Shown: one piece after another, positions 3,414 through 58,761 of the stretch
How the letters are laid out: each line of letters opens with the position of its first letter
Numbering within the stretch: the first letter of the stretch is position 1
Source of the DNA: Candidatus Kapaibacteriales bacterium
GTDB taxonomy: Bacteria; Bacteroidota; Ignavibacteria; Kapaibacteriales; UBA2268
Reading direction: 5' to 3'
DNA: 64,000 bases
NCBI GenBank assembly: GCA_965661945.1
Contig: CBFIFP010000001.1
Location: 777,103-841,102 of the forward strand
The notes under the pieces: generated by a model
What the model was told of the DNA's origin: nothing
Seen by the model: the letters and a program-made list of their open reading frames with translations, nothing else
Databases searched by the model: none
Made by a program: the position numbers and the translations under genes

Positions 3414-4756
3414 TTATTCATTAACTCCTCTAATTCCTTTACTTCTTTTGGTAAATCTTTTGATAATACTTTATTTCCATCTGATGTAATCATAATATCG
3501 TCTTCGATTCTTATACCAATATTCCACCATTTTTTATCACAATTACTTCCTTCTGGAATATAAATTCCTGGCTCAACTGTTATGACATTGCCTTTTTTTA
3601 AAATATCATAGGAACCGACATCATGAACATCTAAACCAAGATAATGCGATGTACCATGGGGAAAGTATTGTCGGGATTGAGAATTCGTTTTAATAAGACC
3701 TAGTTCAATTAATGCACTATCGATATATGACCTTGCTGTTAAATCTATATCTGAGAATTTAACACCTGATTTACATATAGAGATCGCTCTTTTTTGTGCT
3801 TCTAAGACTATTTGATAAATTTTTTTTTGTTCTTTGGTAAATTTACCACTTTTGGGAACTGTTCTTGTAATATCAGAGGCATAACCATGGTATTCAGCTC
3901 CACAGTCAAAAAGTACTAAATCATTGGTTTTAATGCTCATTCTATTATTGCTATAATGTAAGATGCAAGAGTTATATCCAGCTCCTACAATAGAGTTATA
4001 AGCTGTATTTTCTGCGCCTAATGTTTTAAACTCTCCTTCAATTTCTCCCTCTATCTCGTACTCATAATTATATTTTTTAATATTTTTAATAACTTTTTTA
4101 TGAGCTTCTACAGAAATATCAACTGCTTTTTGTATTAAGTTAATCTCGTACTCATCTTTAACTTCTCTTAGTTTTTTACTATATTTATGTTCATTATTAA
4201 ATATTATAAAAGGATTTTTCTCTCTTAAGTCATTAATTATTGATATTTCAAAATCATTTGGTGATTTTGAGTTTAAGTATGGAAAAAATTTTTCTCCTTT
4301 TGAATATGGGGCAACTGATACCTCCATTACATCATCAAGTATTGATGAGAAATTAATTTCTGTGTCATAAAATACTTCTTCAATACCTGAAAACTGTTTT
4401 ATTTCATTTTTAGAAGGAAGAGTGCCATGCCATATTTTATCATTATTTTCTTGCTTTTTAATCATTAAAAATTCAAAAATTATTTTTCCATTTATATTAA
4501 ATCCATTTTTGCTTATGAAGAGTATTGCATTTTTAAATGGATATGAAGTATAATAAAGCATATCACTGTTTTGTCTAAATTTACCATGTTTATCATTTGA
4601 ATAAAAATCTGATGATAATGCAAGATATACTTCACCCTCAAATAAAATCGACTTCAAATTACTTCTTCTTTTTTGATAAACTTCTTTCGGGGGGGTATCA
4701 ATAAAAACGTGATAATAATTGCTAAATAGTAAAGTAATAAATAATAGATTAATCAT
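3410..4756 (-). CDS. Xaa-Pro aminopeptidase (M24B family), probable signal peptide
   Basis: HGTSHYLGLDVHDVG, VITVEPGIYIPEG and GIRIEDDIMIT are M24 metal-ligand motifs. The ORF extends to 4783. The Met at 4756 (MINLLFITLLF) is the likely start and abuts the comF stop. Confidence 0.8.
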   Translation of the reverse strand: MINLLFITLLFSNYYHVFIDTPPKEVYQKRRSNLKSILFEGEVYLALSSDFYSNDKHGKFRQNSDMLYYTSYPFKNAILFISKNGFNINGKIIFEFLMIKKQENNDKIWHGTLPSKNEIKQFSGIEEVFYDTEINFSSILDDVMEVSVAPYSKGEKFFPYLNSKSPNDFEISIINDLREKNPFIIFNNEHKYSKKLREVKDEYEINLIQKAVDISVEAHKKVIKNIKKYNYEYEIEGEIEGEFKTLGAENTAYNSIVGAGYNSCILHYSNNRMSIKTNDLVLFDCGAEYHGYASDITRTVPKSGKFTKEQKKIYQIVLEAQKRAISICKSGVKFSDIDLTARSYIDSALIELGLIKTNSQSRQYFPHGTSHYLGLDVHDVGSYDILKKGNVITVEPGIYIPEGSNCDKKWWNIGIRIEDDIMITSDGNKVLSKDLPKEVKELEELMNK

Positions 4757-6359: not shown

Positions 6360-8198
6360 TTACTCCGATTTAAAAATTTTTAAAATTCTATTGTCTTTTG
6401 TTTGAATTAATAGCAATTTATTACTTTCTATGTTATCTAATTTATTGCCATTTATATCATAAATTGATTCAATTTCAAAGTCATCCAATTCTTTTTGGGT
6501 AACTGATAACGTATTTAGTTCGAACATTAATACCCTCGCTGGACTATAAATTACTAAATTATTATCAATTTGTTGAAATGATATTGTTCTAGAGTACATT
6601 TCAAATTGAATATTATTTACAATAATAAAGTCATCATTAATTTCTAAATTCAAATTCGCAAATTGAAATTTTCTAGGTTCAGGAAAACTTACTACTTTAT
6701 TATCAACTATTTTATAAGTATTATTATATTTACTAGTTAAAATTATTGTCTCATCATTATAATGCAACATAAACCTTATTGTATTTGGAAAATTAAAATC
6801 ATAATCATTTAATTTATTATCCTTTATCATATATAAAGTACCATTGAGAACAAAAAATTTATCTATTTTTGAATCAATCAATGTAGTTGTACTATCTGCA
6901 ATTTTATAATTATATAAATCATTTTCATCATCTAAGATAATTAAATTATTATCATCCTTTAAAGTCATATTTTTAATTTTAGAATTAAAATTAATTTGAA
7001 TAATTTCTTCATTTTTATCTTCATAGTTTTTTATAATAAAATGAATGTATTCATTATGATGTCTATAATTTTGGGTATAAAGAATATTGTTAAAAGTATA
7101 TAAATTAAATTGACTGCCATTTCCAATTATTCTAAATTCTTGTTTTCCTTTTGATATATTCATTAAATATTCATTCCCTCTTATTTGAATTAATTCTTTT
7201 TTTGAATTTAACAAAAATAAATTATTCCAAAAATTTGATAAATATTTTGGGAAATATTTGATATTATCAAAATCATTATTTTCAAATAAAATGTATTTTG
7301 GATGACTTCTTTGCATAATTTGAGTTGCAAAATAATAGTTACCAATTCTTTCAATATTTTCAATTATGTGATTAATTTTATATTCTTTGATTGGTAAATT
7401 GTTTTCATAAATTCTTAAATATACATTATTGATATCTTCCTCATCTTGTGCTAAAGTTATTATGTTGTTTTCATTAATTATAAAATCTCTGATGAAATTT
7501 CCAGGCAAATCTAATATTTTAATTATTTCATTATTTTCAAGTTTATATATTCCATTCAAATCATAGAAATAATTAATATCATCATATTTTTTTGAATAAA
7601 TCATAGACAGATTTGATGTAAACATTACTTCTTTAATATTTGACTTAAATTCGTATTTAATTATTTCACTATTAATACTTGAATAAATCAAATAGTTATC
7701 ACCAATTTGAATTGGTTTATCAATGTTTTCTATATATCTATGATTATTCGTTTCTAAATTAATTAATGTATCACCTGATATTTTGTAATATTCATCATTA
7801 AGATTAAAAATTTCTTTAGTCGATTTATCAATTTCTCTGAAACTCAAATCTGCAACATTTAATTCAAAATTATGATATCCAGAACTCAAACTACCGTCAT
7901 ATATTTGAATTAAATCACCTTGTATTTTGTTTATTGAAATAAATCCATGAAATCCTAATTCTTTTAATCTGTTGTTTTCTATCACATTGACTAATTTTAG
8001 TTTTTCATCATAAATAAAGAGCATATCTGTAGAAAAAACAACTATATAATTTTCAGTTACTACTAACTGAGTAAAACCCATTTTCCCTATGTGTACAATG
8101 TGAAAACTAAAATCATCTATGCCAAATTCATCAATTATTTGACATTTTATACTTATTGAAAACATAGCTAAAACTAAAAATATTAATATTTTTCTCAT
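6360..8198 (-). CDS. hypothetical secreted protein, 612 aa, N/I/Y/K-rich (possibly a beta-rich repeat fold)
   Basis: A long clean ORF with a cleavable-looking signal peptide MRKILIFLVLAMFSISIKCQ. No motifs I recognise. Extremely AT-rich compared with flanking housekeeping genes. Confidence 0.55.
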   Translation of the reverse strand: MRKILIFLVLAMFSISIKCQIIDEFGIDDFSFHIVHIGKMGFTQLVVTENYIVVFSTDMLFIYDEKLKLVNVIENNRLKELGFHGFISINKIQGDLIQIYDGSLSSGYHNFELNVADLSFREIDKSTKEIFNLNDEYYKISGDTLINLETNNHRYIENIDKPIQIGDNYLIYSSINSEIIKYEFKSNIKEVMFTSNLSMIYSKKYDDINYFYDLNGIYKLENNEIIKILDLPGNFIRDFIINENNIITLAQDEEDINNVYLRIYENNLPIKEYKINHIIENIERIGNYYFATQIMQRSHPKYILFENNDFDNIKYFPKYLSNFWNNLFLLNSKKELIQIRGNEYLMNISKGKQEFRIIGNGSQFNLYTFNNILYTQNYRHHNEYIHFIIKNYEDKNEEIIQINFNSKIKNMTLKDDNNLIILDDENDLYNYKIADSTTTLIDSKIDKFFVLNGTLYMIKDNKLNDYDFNFPNTIRFMLHYNDETIILTSKYNNTYKIVDNKVVSFPEPRKFQFANLNLEINDDFIIVNNIQFEMYSRTISFQQIDNNLVIYSPARVLMFELNTLSVTQKELDDFEIESIYDINGNKLDNIESNKLLLIQTKDNRILKIFKSE

Positions 8199-21305: not shown

Positions 21306-21324
21306 AGTTTTCTCTTGTTATTTG

Positions 21325-21397
21325 CACGGGTGGTAGGACTCGAACCCACAGCCTACGGTTTTGGAGACCGCCACTCTACCAATTGAGCTACACCCGT
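21325..21397 (-). tRNA. tRNA-Trp (anticodon CCA)
   Basis: Cloverleaf folded by hand: acceptor ACGGGTG/CACCCGT, anticodon loop CTCCAAA, T-arm GTGGG-TTCGAGT-CCTAC. CCA is not fully encoded. Confidence 0.85.
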
Positions 21398-21436
21398 AAA
21401 AATTAATGCGAGCGTCCAAAAACCTGTAAGATGACG

Positions 21437-21508
<72 letters not shown>

Positions 21509-21515
21509 GGATTAG

Positions 21516-21588
21516 AGCGGAAGACGAGACTCGAACCCGCAACCCTCAGCTTGGAAGGCTGATGCTCTACCAATTGAGCTACTTCCGC
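21516..21588 (-). tRNA. tRNA-Gly (anticodon TCC)
   Basis: Acceptor GCGGAAG/CTTCCGC, anticodon stem-loop TCAGC-CTTCCAA-GCTGA, T-loop TTCGAGT. Confidence 0.85.
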
Positions 21589-21606
21589 ATTTATATCCTT
21601 AATTTG

Positions 21607-21689
21607 TGGGCAGAGAAGGATTCGAACCTCCGTAGGAGTACTCCAACAGATTTACAGTCTGCCCCGTTTAACCACTTCGGTATCTGCCC
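21607..21689 (-). tRNA. tRNA-Tyr (anticodon GTA), type II with long variable arm
   Basis: Acceptor GGGCAGA/TCTGCCC, anticodon stem-loop GCAGA-CTGTAAA-TCTGT, long variable arm, T-loop TTCGAAT. Confidence 0.85.
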
Positions 21690-33915: not shown

Positions 33916-34020
33916 TTAAAATAATTGAAGTTAAAATAAATGATTATAAATCGTTAAAAGTTAAATATTATATTTCATACAATATTAAGGTATATAAAAA
34001 ATAAGCTCTTATATGTTAAT

Positions 34021-34824
34021 CTATAAAATATAATCCAACTCAAATGTAAGACCATCATAAGCAAGGAATATACTCTCTGGAAGTTCCTTGCTTAGTTTTG
34101 AATGAGATATTTGATGAGCTAAATGAGTAAAATATGTAGAATTTGGATTTAACTTTTTAGATACTTCAATAGCTTCTTCTATTGTAAAATGAGTAGGATG
34201 CGGGTGAAATCTTAATGCATCTAAAATTAAAATATCAAGGTTTTGAAGTTTATACATCGACTCGTCTGATATGTAATTAGTATCAGTACAATAAGCAAAA
34301 TTACCAATTCTAAATCCAAGAACTTCAATTTTACCATGCATCATTGGTATTATTTCAAACTTAATATCTCCAATAATAAAATCATCTCTATCTATTTTAT
34401 TTATCTCAAATAATGGCAATCCACCACCAACTTGCACTGCCTCTCCAAAAGCATAAGAGAAGGTCTTCTTAACAGACCTAAGGGTTGAATCATTAATATA
34501 AATCGGAGTAGGTTTGTGTTGAATAAAATTATAAGCCCTTATATCGTCAAAACCTCCAATATGGTCAAAATGTTGATGTGTGAAAACAATAGCGTCTAAT
34601 TTATCAACATTAAATTTAATCATTTGCTGTCGGAAATCTGCAGAAGTATCAATCACTACAGTAGTATTATTTGTTTCAATAAGAAGAGAGCATCTGAGTC
34701 TTTTATCTTTTAAATCATTTGACTGACAAACTGAGCATTTACATCCAATAGTTGGAATTCCTGATGATGTTCCCGTTCCCAATAGTGTAAATCTTATTCT
34801 ACCTTCTTCTACTTTTTTTAACAT
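34021..34824 (-). CDS. MBL-fold metallo-hydrolase (PhnP-like, with N-terminal Cys cluster)
   Basis: HQHFDHIGG (HxHxDH) metallo-beta-lactamase motif. The N-terminal GCKCSVCQ cysteine cluster resembles PhnP-type phosphodiesterases. Confidence 0.65.
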   Translation of the reverse strand: MLKKVEEGRIRFTLLGTGTSSGIPTIGCKCSVCQSNDLKDKRLRCSLLIETNNTTVVIDTSADFRQQMIKFNVDKLDAIVFTHQHFDHIGGFDDIRAYNFIQHKPTPIYINDSTLRSVKKTFSYAFGEAVQVGGGLPLFEINKIDRDDFIIGDIKFEIIPMMHGKIEVLGFRIGNFAYCTDTNYISDESMYKLQNLDILILDALRFHPHPTHFTIEEAIEVSKKLNPNSTYFTHLAHQISHSKLSKELPESIFLAYDGLTFELDYIL

Positions 34825-34888
34825 TAAAATTTAGCTTTTTTATTAAATATTGAACAAAAATAAACTTGAAATAAGAAAGATATTAAGA

Positions 34889-35909: not shown

Positions 35910-36338
35910 TTGGTAGTAAATCAAAAGAAAGAAGAGTTTTCAGACGATCTAAAGTTAGCAATTCTTTCAGCACAACTATGTCAAGATAAATTAGCCGATG
36001 ACGTGCTAATCCTTGATTTAAAACATATTGACACAGCACCAACAGATTATTTTGTAATTTGCAGTTGCGATTCTGCTCCTCAAATGGACGCCATAACTGA
36101 TTTAATCCAACGCACAACAAAAGATTATAAACTTCAAAAACCACACATCGAAGGTTTAGAAAGTTTAGAATGGGTGCTTTTAGATTATTTTGATGTTGTT
36201 ATCCATCTAATGCTCAAACCAGTGCGCTCATTATATAAATTAGAAAAATTATGGGGTGATGCTGAATTTTATACAGTAAATGATGATGCAGATTTATTGC
36301 CTGTAAAATTTGATGATATTCTTAGGATTTATGAATAA
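35910..36338 (+). CDS. rsfS: ribosomal silencing factor RsfS (Iojap family); TTG start
   Basis: 142 aa. The DVLILDL...DYFVICSCDSAPQMDAI...WVLLDYFDVVIHLM pattern matches RsfS. A GGAGA RBS lies 5 nt upstream of the TTG. Confidence 0.8.
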   Translation: MVVNQKKEEFSDDLKLAILSAQLCQDKLADDVLILDLKHIDTAPTDYFVICSCDSAPQMDAITDLIQRTTKDYKLQKPHIEGLESLEWVLLDYFDVVIHLMLKPVRSLYKLEKLWGDAEFYTVNDDADLLPVKFDDILRIYE

Positions 36339-37984
36339 TGGAAAAAGATTATTTATTTGATATTTTTAAAAATGCACTTAATAAATTAGATGTAACTGAT
36401 ACAAGTATTTTAGGCTTTGAAACTCCAAATAATCCTGAATTTGGTGATATAGCTACCAATGTTGCGATGCAATTAGCACGTACTTTGAAAAAAAACCCAA
36501 GACAAATTGCAGAAGATATTATCAATAACTTAGAATATAATTCAGAAGTAATTGAAAATGTTAATGTTGCTGGAGCAGGATTTATAAATGTGAAATTTTC
36601 TCCTGTCTTTTATGATATTTTATTTGAAAAAATCAGACAATCTGGTAAACATTTTGGTAAACAAGATGTTGGTAAAGGTATTAAAGTAAACGTAGAATAT
36701 GTTAGCGCTAATCCAACAGGACTTTTGCACTTAGGTCACGGAAGAAATGCTGTTGTAGGTGATACCGTAGCTAATTTATTTGAGTGGATGGGATATGATG
36801 TCACTCGTGAGTATTACTTTAATAATGCAGGTAATCAAATGAATAATCTTGGTAAATCTATTTATGCAAGATATATGCAAATAGATGAGCCAGAATTTGA
36901 ATTCCTTGAAGATGGTTATCATGGCGAGTATATAAAACTGATTGCACAAGACTTATACAAAAGCAATCCAACTAAATATAAATACCTTGATGAAAAATCG
37001 GAACTCTTTGCAGAGCTTAGAAAAGCTGGAGAAGAATGGTGTTTCTCTAAAATTAAAGAAACTCTTAAAAATCTAAAAATAAAGCAAGATGTTTTTTATA
37101 ATGAAGACTCTCTTTATAAAGAAGGAAAGATTGAAAATGTACTTAATACATTAAAAGAAAAGGGTTTATCTTATGATAAAGAAGGTGCTGTATGGCTTAA
37201 ACTTTCTGAAATGGGATTAGACCAAGATAGAGTAATAGTAAAATCATCTGGCGAGCCAACTTACAGATTACCTGATATTGCTTATCATATTGAAAAATTC
37301 AAACGTGGATATGATATTCTTGTTGATGTATTTGGCGCTGACCATATAGCAACAATTCCAGATGTTATGCAAACTCTCGAACATCTTGGATATGATAAAA
37401 GTAAAATAAGTGTATTAATTCACCAATTTGTAACACTTACAGAAAACGGCAAGCAAGTTAAAATGTCTAAACGAACTGGAAAAAGTTATACTTTAGATGA
37501 TTTACTCGAAGAAGTAGGACCCGATGTAGTTCGCTTTTTCTTCATAATGCGTAGTATCACAACTCACTTAGAATTTGACCTTGGGCTAGCAAAAGAGCAA
37601 AGTGATAAAAATCCAGTATTTTATCTTCAGTATGCTCATGCAAGGGCTTGTTCAATCTTTGCAAAAGCCAGTGAGCAAGATATTACATTAAATGAAAATT
37701 ATAATTATAAATTACTAAGAGACGAAGCAGAAATAAACTTAATTAAGCAAATAATTAGATTTCCTGAAATTATATCAATTTCCTGCGATAAACGTGAGTC
37801 ACATATTTTGGCTGAATACTTAAAAGAAGTTGCATCAACGTTTCACAAATTCTTCCATAATTGCAGAATTTTAGATTCGGAGCAAGAGCTAAGGGATGCG
37901 CGATTACAATTAGTAAATATGACAAAAATAGTTATGAATAATGGGCTTACAATACTTGGAATAAACGCTCCAGAGAAGATGTAA
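36338..37984 (+). CDS. argS: arginine--tRNA ligase
   Basis: 548 aa. The class I HIGH-type motif PTGLLHLGHGRNAVVGD and KMSKRTG are present. The start overlaps the rsfS stop (TAATGG). Confidence 0.9.
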   Translation: MEKDYLFDIFKNALNKLDVTDTSILGFETPNNPEFGDIATNVAMQLARTLKKNPRQIAEDIINNLEYNSEVIENVNVAGAGFINVKFSPVFYDILFEKIRQSGKHFGKQDVGKGIKVNVEYVSANPTGLLHLGHGRNAVVGDTVANLFEWMGYDVTREYYFNNAGNQMNNLGKSIYARYMQIDEPEFEFLEDGYHGEYIKLIAQDLYKSNPTKYKYLDEKSELFAELRKAGEEWCFSKIKETLKNLKIKQDVFYNEDSLYKEGKIENVLNTLKEKGLSYDKEGAVWLKLSEMGLDQDRVIVKSSGEPTYRLPDIAYHIEKFKRGYDILVDVFGADHIATIPDVMQTLEHLGYDKSKISVLIHQFVTLTENGKQVKMSKRTGKSYTLDDLLEEVGPDVVRFFFIMRSITTHLEFDLGLAKEQSDKNPVFYLQYAHARACSIFAKASEQDITLNENYNYKLLRDEAEINLIKQIIRFPEIISISCDKRESHILAEYLKEVASTFHKFFHNCRILDSEQELRDARLQLVNMTKIVMNNGLTILGINAPEKM

Positions 37985-38055
37985 AAAAGAATTATTGACA
38001 TTTAATTTATCGTCATATTGTTTTTGGAGATTTAGAAAAATTTTTGCCGAAACAT

Positions 38056-38253
38056 TTAATATTTTTTAGATTTTACTATTAATGTTTTATCAAAAGACAC
38101 TTTTTTCTTTAACAATTCTTCTGCATATTTCAGTTCAATATTTATCAAATTCGCAAATACATCAATGCTGATACCTCTCGCATCTAATTCATCTGCAAGA
38201 ATTTCTCTTGGATGGGTGTGGTTTATTTTTATGGAATTAAATATTATTTTTAT
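38056..38253 (-). pseudogene. HigA-like (XRE-HTH antitoxin) reading frame without a start codon; probably a decayed antitoxin
   Basis: Manual minus-strand translation gives IKINHTHPREILADELDARGISIDVFANLINIELKYAEELLKKKVSFDKTLIVKSKKY*. HPxEIL followed by an HTH-like stretch is the HigA-family N-terminal signature. The frame is open for 66 codons after a TGA with no ATG/GTG/TTG. Confidence 0.35.
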
Positions 38254-38287
38254 TCAAATTCTTGAAATTAAATTAACTTGCTTTTTT

Positions 38288-38720
38288 TTAATTCTTTACA
38301 TCAAGAAGATTCTTATCTCCTGTAATTATATATCTAGCTTTTGATTCAAAGGTAATTTCAATCAAAAAGCTATCTTTTGGTCTCGTAAAAATTTTAATTT
38401 ATTGGGTATATTAACATATTTAAGGTTATATCTAAATAAGATTATTAAATTATTTATATCTTCAGAACTAAGATTTTTGTTTATCTTTGGTTTGCTTATA
38501 GTGTTAATTAATTCAGGAATCTGTTTTTTAAGTTTTAATGCTTGTTTGTTTTTATTATCAATTATATCTAACAAATCTTTAAAAGATATACTTAATAAAA
38601 TACTTATCTAAATATTAGTATCAAATACACTCATATACATCTCTTTTCTTGTAGATTTTACTAAACTAAAAATTTCTTCTTTGCTTATATCAATATTTTT
38701 ATTCATTTCTACCAATAAAT
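38288..38720 (-). pseudogene. PIN-domain toxin (TIGR00305-like) pseudogene: in-frame TAG plus a 1-bp frameshift
   Basis: One minus-strand frame reads MNKNIDISKEEIFSLVKSTRKEMYM-SVFDTNI-*(TAG at 38608-38610)-ISILLSISFKDLLDIIDNKNK...KLKFLRD. A -1 shift near 38379-38385 (one c missing from a gaccc run would join RD+PKD) then continues PKDSFLIEITFESKARYIITGDKNLLDVKN*. Both the N-terminal hFDTNhh and C-terminal A.YhhTGDKDLL PIN signatures are present. Confidence 0.45.
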
Positions 38721-38734
38721 TCCTCCCCTCTTTC

Positions 38735-39724
38735 TCACCCCACCAAGCCCATCTCTATCATTTTTTCGGCGATTTGCACAGCATTTGTTGCGGCTCCTTT
38801 TCGCAGGTTATCCGATACTACCCAGAGGTTGAATGTTCGCTCAAAGTCTGCTTCTTTTCTTACTCGTCCAACATAAACTAAGTCCGAATGTTCGGCATCT
38901 TGAGGTGTTGGATAATTGAATATATCGCCTTCTTCTATTAACTCAATTCCTTCGACAGATTTGATTATTTCTTTTAATTCTTTAACACTTACATCTTTTT
39001 TAGTTTTGATTTGAACTGATTCTGCGTGTCCGCCTAATATTGGCAATCTAACGCAAGTGAAACTTGTTTTAATATCATTAGTTCCAAGTATCTTACGAGT
39101 TTCTTTGTGCATCTTATTTTCTTCATTTGTATTCCCATTTGGCTCAAGAGGGTGAAAAAGAGCATTATAGGCAATTCGTAAAGTTCCATCAGAATAGAAG
39201 TGGTCATTGATTTCTTGGGCGAGTTTATCCACTCCCTTCTGCCCAGCACCACTTATTGATTGGTAAGTAGAGCAAATAATCGACTCCAAACCAACTTTAT
39301 CCATTATTGGCTTTAATGCTACAACTAATTGAATTGTAGAGCAGTTAGGATTTGCTATTATATAATTATGATTTTTAAGAGCATCTGGGTTTACCTCTGG
39401 CACAACCAAAGGACAATTTTCATCCATACGCCAGGCAGAACTATTATCAATCACAATTGTTTTATTTTTAGCAGCAATAGGAGCATACTTTTTACTCGTT
39501 TCGCCACCTGCAGAAAACAGAGCAATATCAATATCTTGGAAAGAGTCTTCAGTTAATTCTTCAACCTTATATTCCTCCCCTTTAAAATTAATTGTACTGC
39601 CCGCAGACCTACTTGAGGCAAGTAATCTTAAATTTTTAATCTCAATATTTCTTTCTTCTAATAATTTAAGCATTGTACGACCAACAAGACCAGTCGCACC
39701 TACAACTGCTATATTATGAGCCAT
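38735..39724 (-). CDS. asd: aspartate-semialdehyde dehydrogenase
   Basis: 329 aa. N-terminal Rossmann VVGATGLVGRTML, the catalytic Cys region NPNCSTIQLV and a C-terminal His are present. Confidence 0.9.
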   Translation of the reverse strand: MAHNIAVVGATGLVGRTMLKLLEERNIEIKNLRLLASSRSAGSTINFKGEEYKVEELTEDSFQDIDIALFSAGGETSKKYAPIAAKNKTIVIDNSSAWRMDENCPLVVPEVNPDALKNHNYIIANPNCSTIQLVVALKPIMDKVGLESIICSTYQSISGAGQKGVDKLAQEINDHFYSDGTLRIAYNALFHPLEPNGNTNEENKMHKETRKILGTNDIKTSFTCVRLPILGGHAESVQIKTKKDVSVKELKEIIKSVEGIELIEEGDIFNYPTPQDAEHSDLVYVGRVRKEADFERTFNLWVVSDNLRKGAATNAVQIAEKMIEMGLVG

Positions 39725-58565: not shown

Positions 58566-58679
58566 TTTGCCACCGGTTTTATGTATGTATCAATTTAAGA
58601 ATTTAAATAAGATTAACTTTTTAATTTTTTATAAATTTTAGTTAAATCATATTTTGTTTTATTAAATACTTAAAGTACG

Positions 58680-58761
58680 GACGGGGAGACTTGAACTCCC
58701 ACGGGTTACCCCACTAGATCCTAAGTCTAGCGCGTCTGCCAATTTCGCCACGTCCGCAGAA
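58680..58761 (-). tRNA. tRNA-Leu (anticodon TAG), type II
   Basis: Acceptor GCGGACG/CGTCCGT (G1-U72), anticodon stem-loop CTAGA-CTTAGGA-TCTAG, long variable arm, T-arm GGGAG-TTCAAGT-CTCCC. End coordinates are good to within 1-2 nt. Confidence 0.8.

What the first reader, a model, noticed from the sequence alone, without database searches (positions are those of the whole stretch)
38043..38720. Decayed toxin-antitoxin-like pair hidden in the argS-asd intergenic gap
The ~750-bp apparently non-coding gap contains, on the minus strand, a PIN-domain toxin-like frame. It has both hallmark ends (SVFDTNI... and ...ARYIITGDKNLL) but is interrupted by an in-frame TAG and a 1-bp frameshift. Immediately downstream is a HigA-type HPREIL-HTH frame that lacks any start codon. 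Both are therefore pseudogenes, presumably a module that was inactivated after losing its selfish function. Housekeeping flanks (argS, asd) show this was an insertion into core chromosome.
Basis: seen in the sequence. Interest (0 to 1): 0.55.

Follow-up and report, generated by a model that had tools for sequence, protein, structure and literature searches.

The report
Dead three-gene toxin-antitoxin remnant
The gap between argS and asd holds the wrecks of three small genes: the tail of an antitoxin, its PIN-type toxin and a separate HigA-like regulator.

Summary
On the minus strand of the 750-bp argS/asd gap lie a PIN_3/TIGR00305 toxin pseudogene and a HigA-like HTH pseudogene. Two other independent assemblies carry the same lesions, so these are not assembly errors.

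Decay goes further than reported:
- PIN has two nonsense codons and two 1-nt deletions.
- HigA has lost its start and 3' end, and has one 1-nt deletion and two nonsense codons.

The pairing is wrong. A genome about 99.8% identical outside this spot (L124/L145) has intact genes between the same asd and argS. Their order is HigA-like (89 aa), then a 72-aa protein overlapping an intact PIN (133 aa) by 17 nt. That 72-aa partner precedes the PIN in all six contexts examined; HigA is present in only one. The 25-31 codons upstream of the window's PIN are the C-terminal stump of this partner.

So the gap holds three remnants: antitoxin stump, PIN and an orphan HigA-like gene. Gene order is permuted relative to L124.

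The two versions differ by 12-30% only within a 1.5-1.7 kb tract that includes the 3' ends of asd and argS. This points to replacement by homologous recombination.

Verdict: ordinary biology, a polymorphic and decaying TA island. Interest is low.

The parts
38735..39724 (-). asd (aspartate-semialdehyde dehydrogenase, 329 aa), intact. Its stop lies 13 nt upstream of the first remnant.
   Evidence: ORF list. Orthologue in L124 carries Pfam Semialdhyde_dh.
38722..38728 (-). GGGGAGG, a Shine-Dalgarno-like run 6 nt upstream of a TTG (38715). It has no counterpart in L124.
   Evidence: Sequence. One of only 2 GGGGAGG on that strand in 64 kb; about 24% of long ORFs in the window have an SD core, against 7% of random 17-mers.
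38629..38721 (-). 3' stump (codons 40-70 of 72) of the conserved upstream partner of the PIN, a VapB15-like putative antitoxin. The start, promoter and first 39 codons are deleted. A 1-nt deletion at the old overlap fuses it in frame to the PIN.
   Evidence: tblastn of the L124 72-aa protein: 74% identity over 31 aa, E 2e-8. Alignment A4. Codon walk.
38608..38715 (-). Residual 35-codon ORF (TTG start): antitoxin stump plus the first 8 PIN codons, ending at the TAG.
   Evidence: ORF list. The internal ATG at 38706 is AAG in L081/L082.
38249..38636 (-). PIN_3/TIGR00305 toxin pseudogene. Lesions: Trp10 TGG to TAG (38610-38608); 1-nt deletion in Asp86 codon (38382/38381); 1-nt deletion in Tyr117 codon (38290/38289), creating TAA at 38290-38288; Thr124 to TAA (38270-38268); altered start region and a shortened C-terminus.
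   Evidence: HMM hits. 66% identical to intact P0009. Codon walk against L124, 83/134 identical. DNA 75% identical to L124 2928-3390.
37993..38254 (-). HigA-like HTH pseudogene (conserved core 38217-38001). Lesions: ATG lost (38254-52); 4-nt insertion (about 38245-39); 1-nt deletion in Asp54 codon (38091/90); TAA at 38089-87 and at 38068-66; last 6 or so codons and the stop lost, so the frame runs antisense into the argS 3' end.
   Evidence: TIGR02607 E 8.8e-9, below cut-off. PDB HigA 2icp, E 7e-5. 75% DNA identity to the intact 89-aa gene at L124 2238-2455. Codon walk, 48/90 identical.
36338..37984 (+). argS (arginyl-tRNA synthetase, 548 aa), intact and convergent with asd. No terminator hairpin follows it in this haplotype.
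   Evidence: ORF list. No terminator-like site. Fold z-score -0.22. L124 and L086 have clear hairpin terminators there.
37669..39113 (.). Divergent tract relative to the otherwise ~99.8%-identical genome L124/L145. It covers the 3' 316 nt of argS (77.5% identity), the island, and the 3' 379 nt of asd (87.6% identity). A few more differences extend to 37441.
   Evidence: Positions of all differences. Per-region identities. Background identity over 15.5 kb.

Best explanation
The gap is the dead remnant of a small toxin-antitoxin island, made of three gene wrecks.

1. The C-terminal third of a 72-aa antitoxin.
2. Its cognate PIN_3 (TIGR00305-type) toxin. When intact, this would be a VapC-like Mg-dependent RNase, neutralised by the upstream partner and translationally coupled to it through a 17-nt overlap.
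3. A separate, orphan HigA-like helix-turn-helix gene.

None can make a functional protein. The antitoxin lacks its promoter, start and first 39 codons. The toxin is stopped at codon 10 and has further frameshifts. The HTH gene lacks a start and has internal stops.

Inference on order of events: the toxin must have been inactivated before or together with the deletion that removed the antitoxin, because an unopposed toxin would be lethal.

A co-circulating haplotype of the same species keeps the island intact and larger: HigA-like, antitoxin-PIN, a 190-aa ORF, a glyoxalase and a bidirectional terminator. The two haplotypes are exchanged by homologous recombination, with crossovers inside asd and argS.

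Inference on the permuted order (window: antitoxin'-PIN-HigA; L124: HigA-antitoxin-PIN): the most economical explanation is an ancestor with a HigA copy on each side of the pair, followed by reciprocal loss.

What is shown: homology, lesions, synteny and the recombination tract. What is inferred: RNase activity, neutralisation, the order of events and the duplication model.
For: Family assignment:
- Reconstructed PIN: TIGR00305 at 67.9 bits and PIN_3 at 46.3 bits, both full length and above cut-off.
- Intact L124 PIN: TIGR00305 at 89.4 bits.

Lesions are real: identical in three assemblies.

Intact orthologous locus: L124/L145 carries purK-ymdB-asd | HigA-like 89 aa | 72 aa overlapping PIN 133 aa | orf190 | glyoxalase | argS-rsfS.
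- Outside the tract, identity is 98.9-99.1% over 15.5 kb including the tract, and about 99.8% excluding it.
- ymdB shows 0 differences in 798 nt.

Cognate partner:
- A 71-73-aa ORF overlaps the PIN by 17 nt in six unrelated contexts.
- The partners are homologous to one another at 38-68% identity.
- 2 of 7 hit the NCBIfam VapB15 antitoxin model (best E 4e-9).
- The window keeps residues 40-70 of this partner.

HigA is not the partner:
- It is absent from the other five contexts.
- No HigB/RelE remnant is detectable.

HigA duplication:
- L124 holds a second, 24/25-identical copy of the HigA 3' end at 4111-4135, downstream of the PIN and just before the glyoxalase gene.

Experimental precedent: a PIN3 toxin with an upstream antitoxin, Ssr8013-Slr8014, shows growth arrest and mRNA decay that are relieved by the antitoxin (PMC4963859).
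Against: - The 72-aa partner has no Pfam hit. Only 2 of 7 members hit the VapB15 model, and both are below its cut-off. No solved-structure relative was found by sequence. Its antitoxin role therefore rests mainly on conserved linkage.
- HigA-like genes lie beside the pair in both haplotypes of this locus, so a functional link (third component) is not excluded.
- The direction of change is unresolved. Both tract versions are equally distant from the outgroups, so it is unknown which haplotype is native and which imported.
- The two-HigA-copy ancestor rests on one 25-nt repeat and on junction anatomy.
Confidence: 0.85

Rival explanations
1. One reading: PIN (toxin, upstream) and HigA (antitoxin, downstream) were one cognate pair in higBA-like reverse order, and decayed together.
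For: - The two are adjacent and co-directional in the window, about 30 nt apart.
- HigA-like sequence lies near the PIN in both haplotypes.
- PIN3 toxins with a downstream antitoxin (HicB, toxin-antitoxin order) are listed in Synechocystis (PMC4963859).
- 'Mix and match' of toxin and antitoxin families is documented (PMC3337138).
Against: - Six of six contexts of the nearest intact PINs have the overlapping upstream 72-aa partner.
- Five of six have no HigA.
- In L124, HigA lies upstream, 324 nt away, with a terminator-like hairpin between it and the pair.
- The window itself retains the stump of the upstream partner.
Confidence: 0.05
2. A three-component module: the HigA-like HTH is a dedicated transcriptional regulator of the antitoxin-PIN pair (as in paaR-paaA-parE or omega-epsilon-zeta). 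The three genes travel as one unit, and the permuted order reflects tandem duplication or a circular intermediate.
For: - The same three gene families occur in both deeply diverged haplotypes of the locus.
- GAATAAAA occurs both just before the HigA start and at the PIN stop in L124. The window's PIN-to-HigA junction falls on that motif.
- L124 carries a second copy of the HigA 3' end downstream of the PIN.
Against: - The pair occurs without HigA in five other contexts.
- An 8-nt AT-rich motif is expected by chance in a 22-30% GC sequence.
- Only one locus supports the linkage.
Confidence: 0.1
3. Sequencing or assembly artefact, or recoding: the PIN is really an intact gene, either because of errors or through TAG read-through plus programmed frameshifting.
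For: None beyond the good residual similarity.
Against: - Three independent assemblies share every lesion.
- There are at least four disabling lesions in PIN and five in HigA. The two PIN deletions lie in unrelated sequence contexts (GA-CCA and TA-AAAA).
- Flanking genes translate normally with table 11.
- The cognate antitoxin is largely deleted.
Confidence: 0.01
4. Residual function (not exclusive with the best explanation). The 35-codon ORF with a strong SD encodes the C-terminal, normally toxin-binding, part of the antitoxin and is still translated as an 'anti-addiction' mini-antitoxin. Alternatively, the terminator-less remnant serves as a convergent-transcription buffer between asd and argS.
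For: - GGGGAGG lies 6 nt upstream of TTG.
- The stump has no internal lesion and is the best conserved of the three remnants: 74% aa identity, against 62% for PIN and 53% for HigA.
- There is no terminator in the gap.
Against: - 93 nt without a lesion is not significant at the lesion density seen in the neighbours.
- The ATG at 38706 is not conserved in L081/L082.
- There are no expression data.
- There are too few variants for a dN/dS test.
Confidence: 0.08

Closest known systems
TIGR00305 / Pfam PF13470 (PIN_3) putative type II toxins, e.g. Slr8014 of Synechocystis 6803 (Ssr8013-Slr8014)
   Same: - Full-length profile match above cut-off after repair.
- The DTN, E, RDPxD and TGD motifs are recognisable.
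- Intact relatives are 129-137 aa with a small upstream gene overlapping the start. This is the same antitoxin-then-toxin layout as Ssr8013-Slr8014 and as the plasmid examples H1, H3 and H4.
   Different: - Here the gene is dead (two stops, two frameshifts).
- The upstream partner is neither DUF2281 nor Phd/YefM, but a 72-aa family without a Pfam model.
- No activity was tested.
VapB15-family antitoxins (NCBIfam NF047401; M. tuberculosis VapBC15)
   Same: - Small upstream partner of a PIN toxin.
- 2 of 7 members of the 72-aa family match the model end to end (best E 4e-9).
   Different: - Scores are far below the curated cut-off (36.5 against 80 bits), and most members do not hit.
- The toxin partner is PIN_3, not a classical VapC (PF01850).
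- Only the last 31 codons remain in the window.
HigA antitoxins (TIGR02607; E. coli CFT073 HigA 2ICP, Proteus vulgaris HigA 4MCX)
   Same: - HPxEIL N-terminal motif.
- HTH core and the ...FWLNLQ..YD C-terminal motif.
- Collinear, ungapped alignment to solved HigA structures.
   Different: - Below the family cut-off, even for the intact L124 orthologue (27.9 bits).
- No HigB/RelE toxin upstream in either haplotype.
- The nearest annotated relative (Flavobacterium plasmid) does have a RelE/ParE toxin upstream.
- In the window it is a pseudogene.
Decaying chromosomal TA loci / variable islands exchanged by flanking homologous recombination
   Same: - Small selfish module at a synteny breakpoint between housekeeping genes.
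- Presence/decay polymorphism within a species.
- Toxin inactivated and antitoxin truncated.
   Different: Nothing essential; this is a textbook case. It is unusual only in how cleanly the recombination tract and the intact allele could be recovered.

Membership tests
PIN_3 / TIGR00305 toxin | Full-length profile match above the curated cut-off | tested here: met
PIN_3 / TIGR00305 toxin | Conserved acidic/active-site motifs (DTN, E about residue 41, RDPxD, TGD) | tested here: met
   All are recognisable in alignments A2 and A3. However, the Asp codon of RD-PKD carries the 1-nt deletion.
PIN_3 / TIGR00305 toxin | Uninterrupted reading frame (a functional gene) | tested here: not met
   TAG at 38610-08; 1-nt deletions at 38382/81 and 38290/89; TAA at 38270-68. 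The same lesions occur in three assemblies.
PIN_3 / TIGR00305 toxin | Mg-dependent RNase activity and growth inhibition | not testable with these tools
   Only precedent is available: Slr8014 (PMC4963859).
HigA antitoxin (TIGR02607) | Profile match above the curated cut-off | tested here: not met
   35.1 bits (repaired window copy) and 27.9 bits (intact L124 copy), against a cut-off of 47.7. E-values are 9e-9 and 1.5e-6, both end to end.
HigA antitoxin (TIGR02607) | Collinear similarity to experimentally solved HigA proteins | tested here: met
   2icp E 7e-5, 3cec E 5e-4, 4mcx E 2.5e-3; ungapped over about 70 residues.
HigA antitoxin (TIGR02607) | Adjacent upstream HigB/RelE-type toxin gene | tested here: not met
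   No RelE/HigB similarity in the window gap or in the L124 island. Upstream is the PIN (window) or asd (L124).
Type II TA pair (VapBC-like: upstream antitoxin + PIN toxin) | Two small co-directional genes, overlapping or tightly spaced, conserved together in different genomic contexts | tested here: met
   A 71-73-aa ORF overlaps the PIN by 17 nt in six contexts. In the window only the last 31 codons of the upstream gene remain.
Type II TA pair (VapBC-like: upstream antitoxin + PIN toxin) | Antitoxin neutralises the toxin and autoregulates the operon | not testable with these tools
   Needs co-expression and DNA-binding assays.
VapB15-family antitoxin (NF047401) | Profile match above the curated cut-off | tested here: not met
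   Best member scores 36.5 bits against a cut-off of 80. Only 2 of 7 members hit at E<0.1.

The most novel reading that the evidence does not exclude
Two readings are not excluded.

1. The HigA-like HTH, the 72-aa VapB15-like protein and the PIN_3 toxin form a three-component unit whose order can be permuted, by tandem duplication and reciprocal loss or through a circular intermediate.
2. The surviving 35-codon ORF, which has a strong SD and encodes the toxin-binding end of the antitoxin, is kept as a mini 'anti-addiction' antitoxin against incoming intact copies of the module.
Probability: 0.1. Interest if true: 0.45.

Novelty: new member of a known kind. Interest (0 to 1): 0.2.

Why it matters
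This matters mainly for annotation.
- The gap should be annotated as three pseudogene fragments, not as non-coding DNA and not as a PIN/HigA pair.
- The 72-aa protein family upstream of this PIN_3 subfamily should be recognised as its putative antitoxin. It has no Pfam model.

Beyond that, the locus is a clean natural example of TA-island turnover. Within one species (about 99.8% identity), one haplotype has an intact module plus cargo. The other has a decayed, rearranged stump that has also lost the argS terminator. The swap is delimited to about 1.5 kb by crossovers inside two essential genes.

Nothing here challenges current understanding of TA systems.

Tried and rejected
- Word-indexed protein searches with the repaired PIN and the repaired HigA found only the gene-caller's fragment P0001, or nothing.
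- Scans of JGI metagenome contigs and IMG/VR for the PIN found nothing.
An exact 81-aa window piece was used instead and gave the breakthrough hit P0002.
- The genome-contig scan with Asd and the metagenome scan with ArgS showed that relatives at 83% identity or less do not have argS next to asd and lack PIN and HigA. No 'empty junction' therefore exists there.
- Rfam found nothing in the gap or in the L124 island.
- No intrinsic terminator or significant RNA structure was found in the gap.
- No solved-structure homologue by sequence was found for the PIN subfamily or for the 72-aa partner.
- No HigB/RelE remnant was found.
- An outgroup comparison to polarise the recombination event was uninformative.
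- The 12-nt repeat flanking the PIN remnant is within chance expectation for this base composition.
- My first HigA repair placed the frameshift in an A-run near 38068. Comparison with L124 showed it is a deletion in the Asp54 codon, followed by two TAA codons.

Full report
**Setting**

The window has 30% GC. argS (+, 36338-37984) and asd (-, 38735-39724) converge on a 750-bp gap of 22% GC. That value matches the window's other non-coding DNA (21%, against 31% for coding). The nearest named relatives of the flanking genes are Ignavibacteria/Kapaibacterium-type MAGs.

**Checking the observation**

PIN on the minus strand:
- The frame reads MSVFDTNI, then TAG (38610-38608).
- It continues ISILLS...KLKFLRDQKIAF to TGA.
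- One base out of frame, it reads ...PKDSFLIEITFESKARYIITGDKNLLDVKN.
- Joined, this matches Pfam PIN_3 (46.3 bits, cut-off 27) and TIGR00305 (63.3 bits, cut-off 29.15) over the whole model.

HigA further downstream:
- The frame HTHPREILADELDARGIS...FLNLQKQYDDKL has no start codon.
- Repaired, it matches TIGR02607 HigA end to end (E 1e-7 to 9e-9). The score stays below the curated cut-off (31-35 against 47.7 bits).
- It aligns without gaps to solved HigA proteins (2icp, E 7e-5).

**The lesions are real**

The only close database protein, P0001, is a gene-caller's translation of the middle PIN fragment, with TGA read as Trp. Its two source contigs are independent assemblies of the same locus: L081 (Logan DRR816238) and L082 (ENA ERZ27267651). 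They have the same TAG and the same frameshifts. L082 differs from the window at four positions in 972 nt, two of them in the gap.

**Finding intact relatives**

An exhaustive HMMER search with the exact 81-aa middle fragment found P0002, an intact 134-aa protein 53% identical to it. A profile built from these hits recovered 2772 PIN_3 proteins. The best was P0009 (133 aa), 66% identical to the repaired window PIN.

**The orthologous locus**

P0009 lies in contig L124/L145 (Logan SRR24908277, 25.6 kb). Three further samples carry the same arrangement. The gene order is:
- purK, ymdB, asd
- a HigA-like gene of 89 aa, starting 10 nt after the asd stop
- a 324-nt spacer
- a 72-aa ORF overlapping, by 17 nt, an intact 133-aa PIN
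- a 190-aa ORF on the other strand
- a glyoxalase gene
- a bidirectional terminator
- argS, rsfS

Apart from the short 3' ends adjacent to the island (see 'A recombination tract' below), the flanks are almost identical to the window:
- ymdB shows 0 differences in 798 nt.
- Identity is about 99.8% over 15.5 kb once the tract next to the island is excluded.

Inside the island, similarity drops sharply:
- Window 38709-38250 matches L124's antitoxin 3' end plus PIN at only 75%.
- Window 38217-38001 matches L124's HigA gene at 75%.
- The order differs: L124 has HigA, antitoxin, PIN; the window has antitoxin stump, PIN, HigA.
- orf190, the glyoxalase gene and the terminator have no counterpart in the window.

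**What the PIN's partner is**

- In six different genomic contexts of the nearest intact PINs (L124, L128, L133, L137, L141, L144), a 71-73-aa ORF precedes the PIN and overlaps it by exactly 17 nt.
- These proteins are homologous to one another (38-68% identity) and end in ...NIDISEEEIxxLVKExRKExYESSN.
- They have no Pfam family.
- Two of seven hit the NCBIfam VapB15 antitoxin model end to end (best E 4e-9), below its cut-off.
- The window's NLLVEMNKNIDISKEEIFSLVKSTRKEMYMS (38721-38629) corresponds to residues 40-70 of this protein (74% identity, E 2e-8).

The window therefore retains only the 3' stump of the true upstream partner.

- HigA-like sequence is absent from the other five contexts.
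- No HigB/RelE remnant is detectable next to it in either haplotype.
- The closest annotated HigA relative, on a Flavobacterium plasmid, does have a RelE/ParE toxin upstream.

So the HigA-like gene is an orphan at this locus, not the PIN's antitoxin. Distant TIGR00305 genes on plasmids show the same layout of an upstream antitoxin overlapping the toxin. One PIN3 pair of that layout, Ssr8013-Slr8014, has been validated experimentally (PMC4963859).

**Lesion catalogue (codon walk against L124)**

Antitoxin:
- The first 39 codons, the start and the promoter are gone.
- A 1-nt deletion at the old overlap fuses the stump in frame to the PIN.

PIN:
- Trp10 TGG to TAG.
- 1-nt deletion in the Asp86 codon (38382/81), inside the RDPxD motif.
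- 1-nt deletion in the Tyr117 codon (38290/89).
- Thr124 to TAA (38270-68).
- The C-terminus is shortened.
- 83 of 134 residues are identical to L124.

HigA:
- ATG lost.
- 4-nt insertion near 38245-39.
- 1-nt deletion in the Asp54 codon (38091/90).
- TAA at 38089-87 and at 38068-66.
- The last 6 or so codons and the stop are lost, so the frame runs antisense into argS.
- 48 of 90 residues are identical to L124.

**A recombination tract**

Differences between the window and L124 are not spread evenly:
- 47 of the 49 differences on the asd side fall in 39113-38777.
- 72 of the 81 differences on the argS side fall in 37989-37669.
- Most are synonymous: dS is about 0.2 averaged over whole genes, and Asp-semialdehyde dehydrogenase has only 5 amino-acid changes.
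- Within the tract, identity is 87.6% for the asd 3' end and 77.5% for the argS 3' end. The argS 3' end is thus as far apart as either haplotype is from a different genus-level relative.

The island and the last 100 or so codons of both housekeeping genes therefore form a deeply diverged allele. It was exchanged by homologous recombination within an otherwise near-clonal background. Which allele is the import cannot be decided.

More distant relatives do not place argS next to asd at all. The island thus sits at a synteny breakpoint, and there is no 'empty site' to compare with.

**Permuted order (inference)**

- L124 carries a second, 24/25-identical copy of the HigA 3' end at 4111-4135, downstream of the PIN and just upstream of the glyoxalase gene.
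- The window's HigA remnant occupies the equivalent position.
- Its 3' junction leads straight into the sequence that in L124 follows the terminator.
- The window's 5' junction joins an SD-like run after asd to antitoxin codon 40.

An ancestor of the form asd-HigA-antitoxin-PIN-HigA-glyoxalase-argS, followed by reciprocal deletions, explains both arrangements. This is a model, not a demonstration.

**Mechanism**

- Intact form (inferred from family knowledge and from the Slr8014 precedent): the PIN is a VapC-like RNase, held inactive by the upstream 72-aa protein.
- Window form: no functional product is possible.
- The toxin must have been disabled no later than the deletion of its antitoxin.
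- A residual 35-codon ORF (38715-38608) is preceded by GGGGAGG, one of only two such runs on that strand in 64 kb. It encodes the antitoxin's C-terminal part. A remaining 'mini-antitoxin' role cannot be excluded, but nothing supports it beyond these features.
- The gap has no terminator, whereas L124 and L086 have clear ones after argS.

**Verdict**

These are pseudogenes of TA-type families, but three remnants are present, not two, and HigA is not the PIN's partner. The finding is an ordinary decayed, polymorphic TA island. It is useful for annotation and as a neat example of island turnover, but it is not surprising to a specialist.

Noticed in passing
window 37441-39113 vs L124/L145: A sharp mosaic. 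The two genomes are about 99.8% identical over 15 kb, but 12-22% divergent across the 3' ends of asd and argS and 25-30% divergent in the island between them. This is the footprint of homologous recombination that swapped the whole island allele.
   Followed up: yes
window 37985-38080; L124 4574-4595; L086 about 6665-6700: argS in the window haplotype has no terminator hairpin (fold z-score -0.22). L124 has a bidirectional hairpin (AATCCTCC-loop-GGAGGATT) shared with the glyoxalase gene, and the 83% relative L086 has a canonical terminator. asd and argS may therefore read through into each other's antisense strand here.
   Followed up: partly
L124 2454-2478 and 4111-4135: A 25-nt direct repeat (24/25 identical). 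One copy is the 3' end of the intact HigA-like gene; the other lies 9 nt upstream of the glyoxalase start. It suggests a former second HigA copy downstream of the PIN.
   Followed up: partly
L124 3409-3981 (-) and 4144-4569 (+): The intact haplotype carries two extra genes that are missing from the window: a 190-aa ORF with no family hit and a glyoxalase-fold protein. A 74%-identical glyoxalase sits elsewhere near asd in L001.
   Followed up: no
P0001; L081 828-1076, L082 692-940: The public protein P0001 is a gene-caller artefact. It is the middle PIN fragment translated through TGA as Trp (the tool notes 'translates_to_query: no' under table 11). A pseudogene piece has therefore entered protein databases as an 82-aa protein.
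   Followed up: yes
L001, L002, L008, L133 (record titles): The closest MAGs are titled 'uncultured Hyphomicrobiales bacterium'. Their Asd and ArgS, and the low GC of the window's lineage, place them with Ignavibacteria/Kapaibacterium-type genomes (L005, L006). The titles look like taxonomic mislabels.
   Followed up: no
L144 3739-4397: In the Ignavibacteria-type contig L144, a second PIN_3 gene preceded by a faint RHH_1-type ORF lies 1 kb downstream of the first 73-aa/PIN pair. TA modules cluster there.
   Followed up: no
window 21324-21689 and 58675-58757 (-): A tRNA cluster (Trp-CCA, Thr-GGT, Gly-TCC, Tyr-GTA) and a lone tRNA-Leu-TAG explain two of the other long gaps without long ORFs in the window. 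These are ordinary.
   Followed up: yes
L145 12317-13120 (window about 34020-34825): A metallo-beta-lactamase-fold gene next to the XerC/D-like recombinase carries a precomputed Pfam hit to Anti-Pycsar_Apyc1 (PF23023) as well as Lactamase_B. It is probably a housekeeping MBL/RNase Z-like enzyme, but this was not checked.
   Followed up: no
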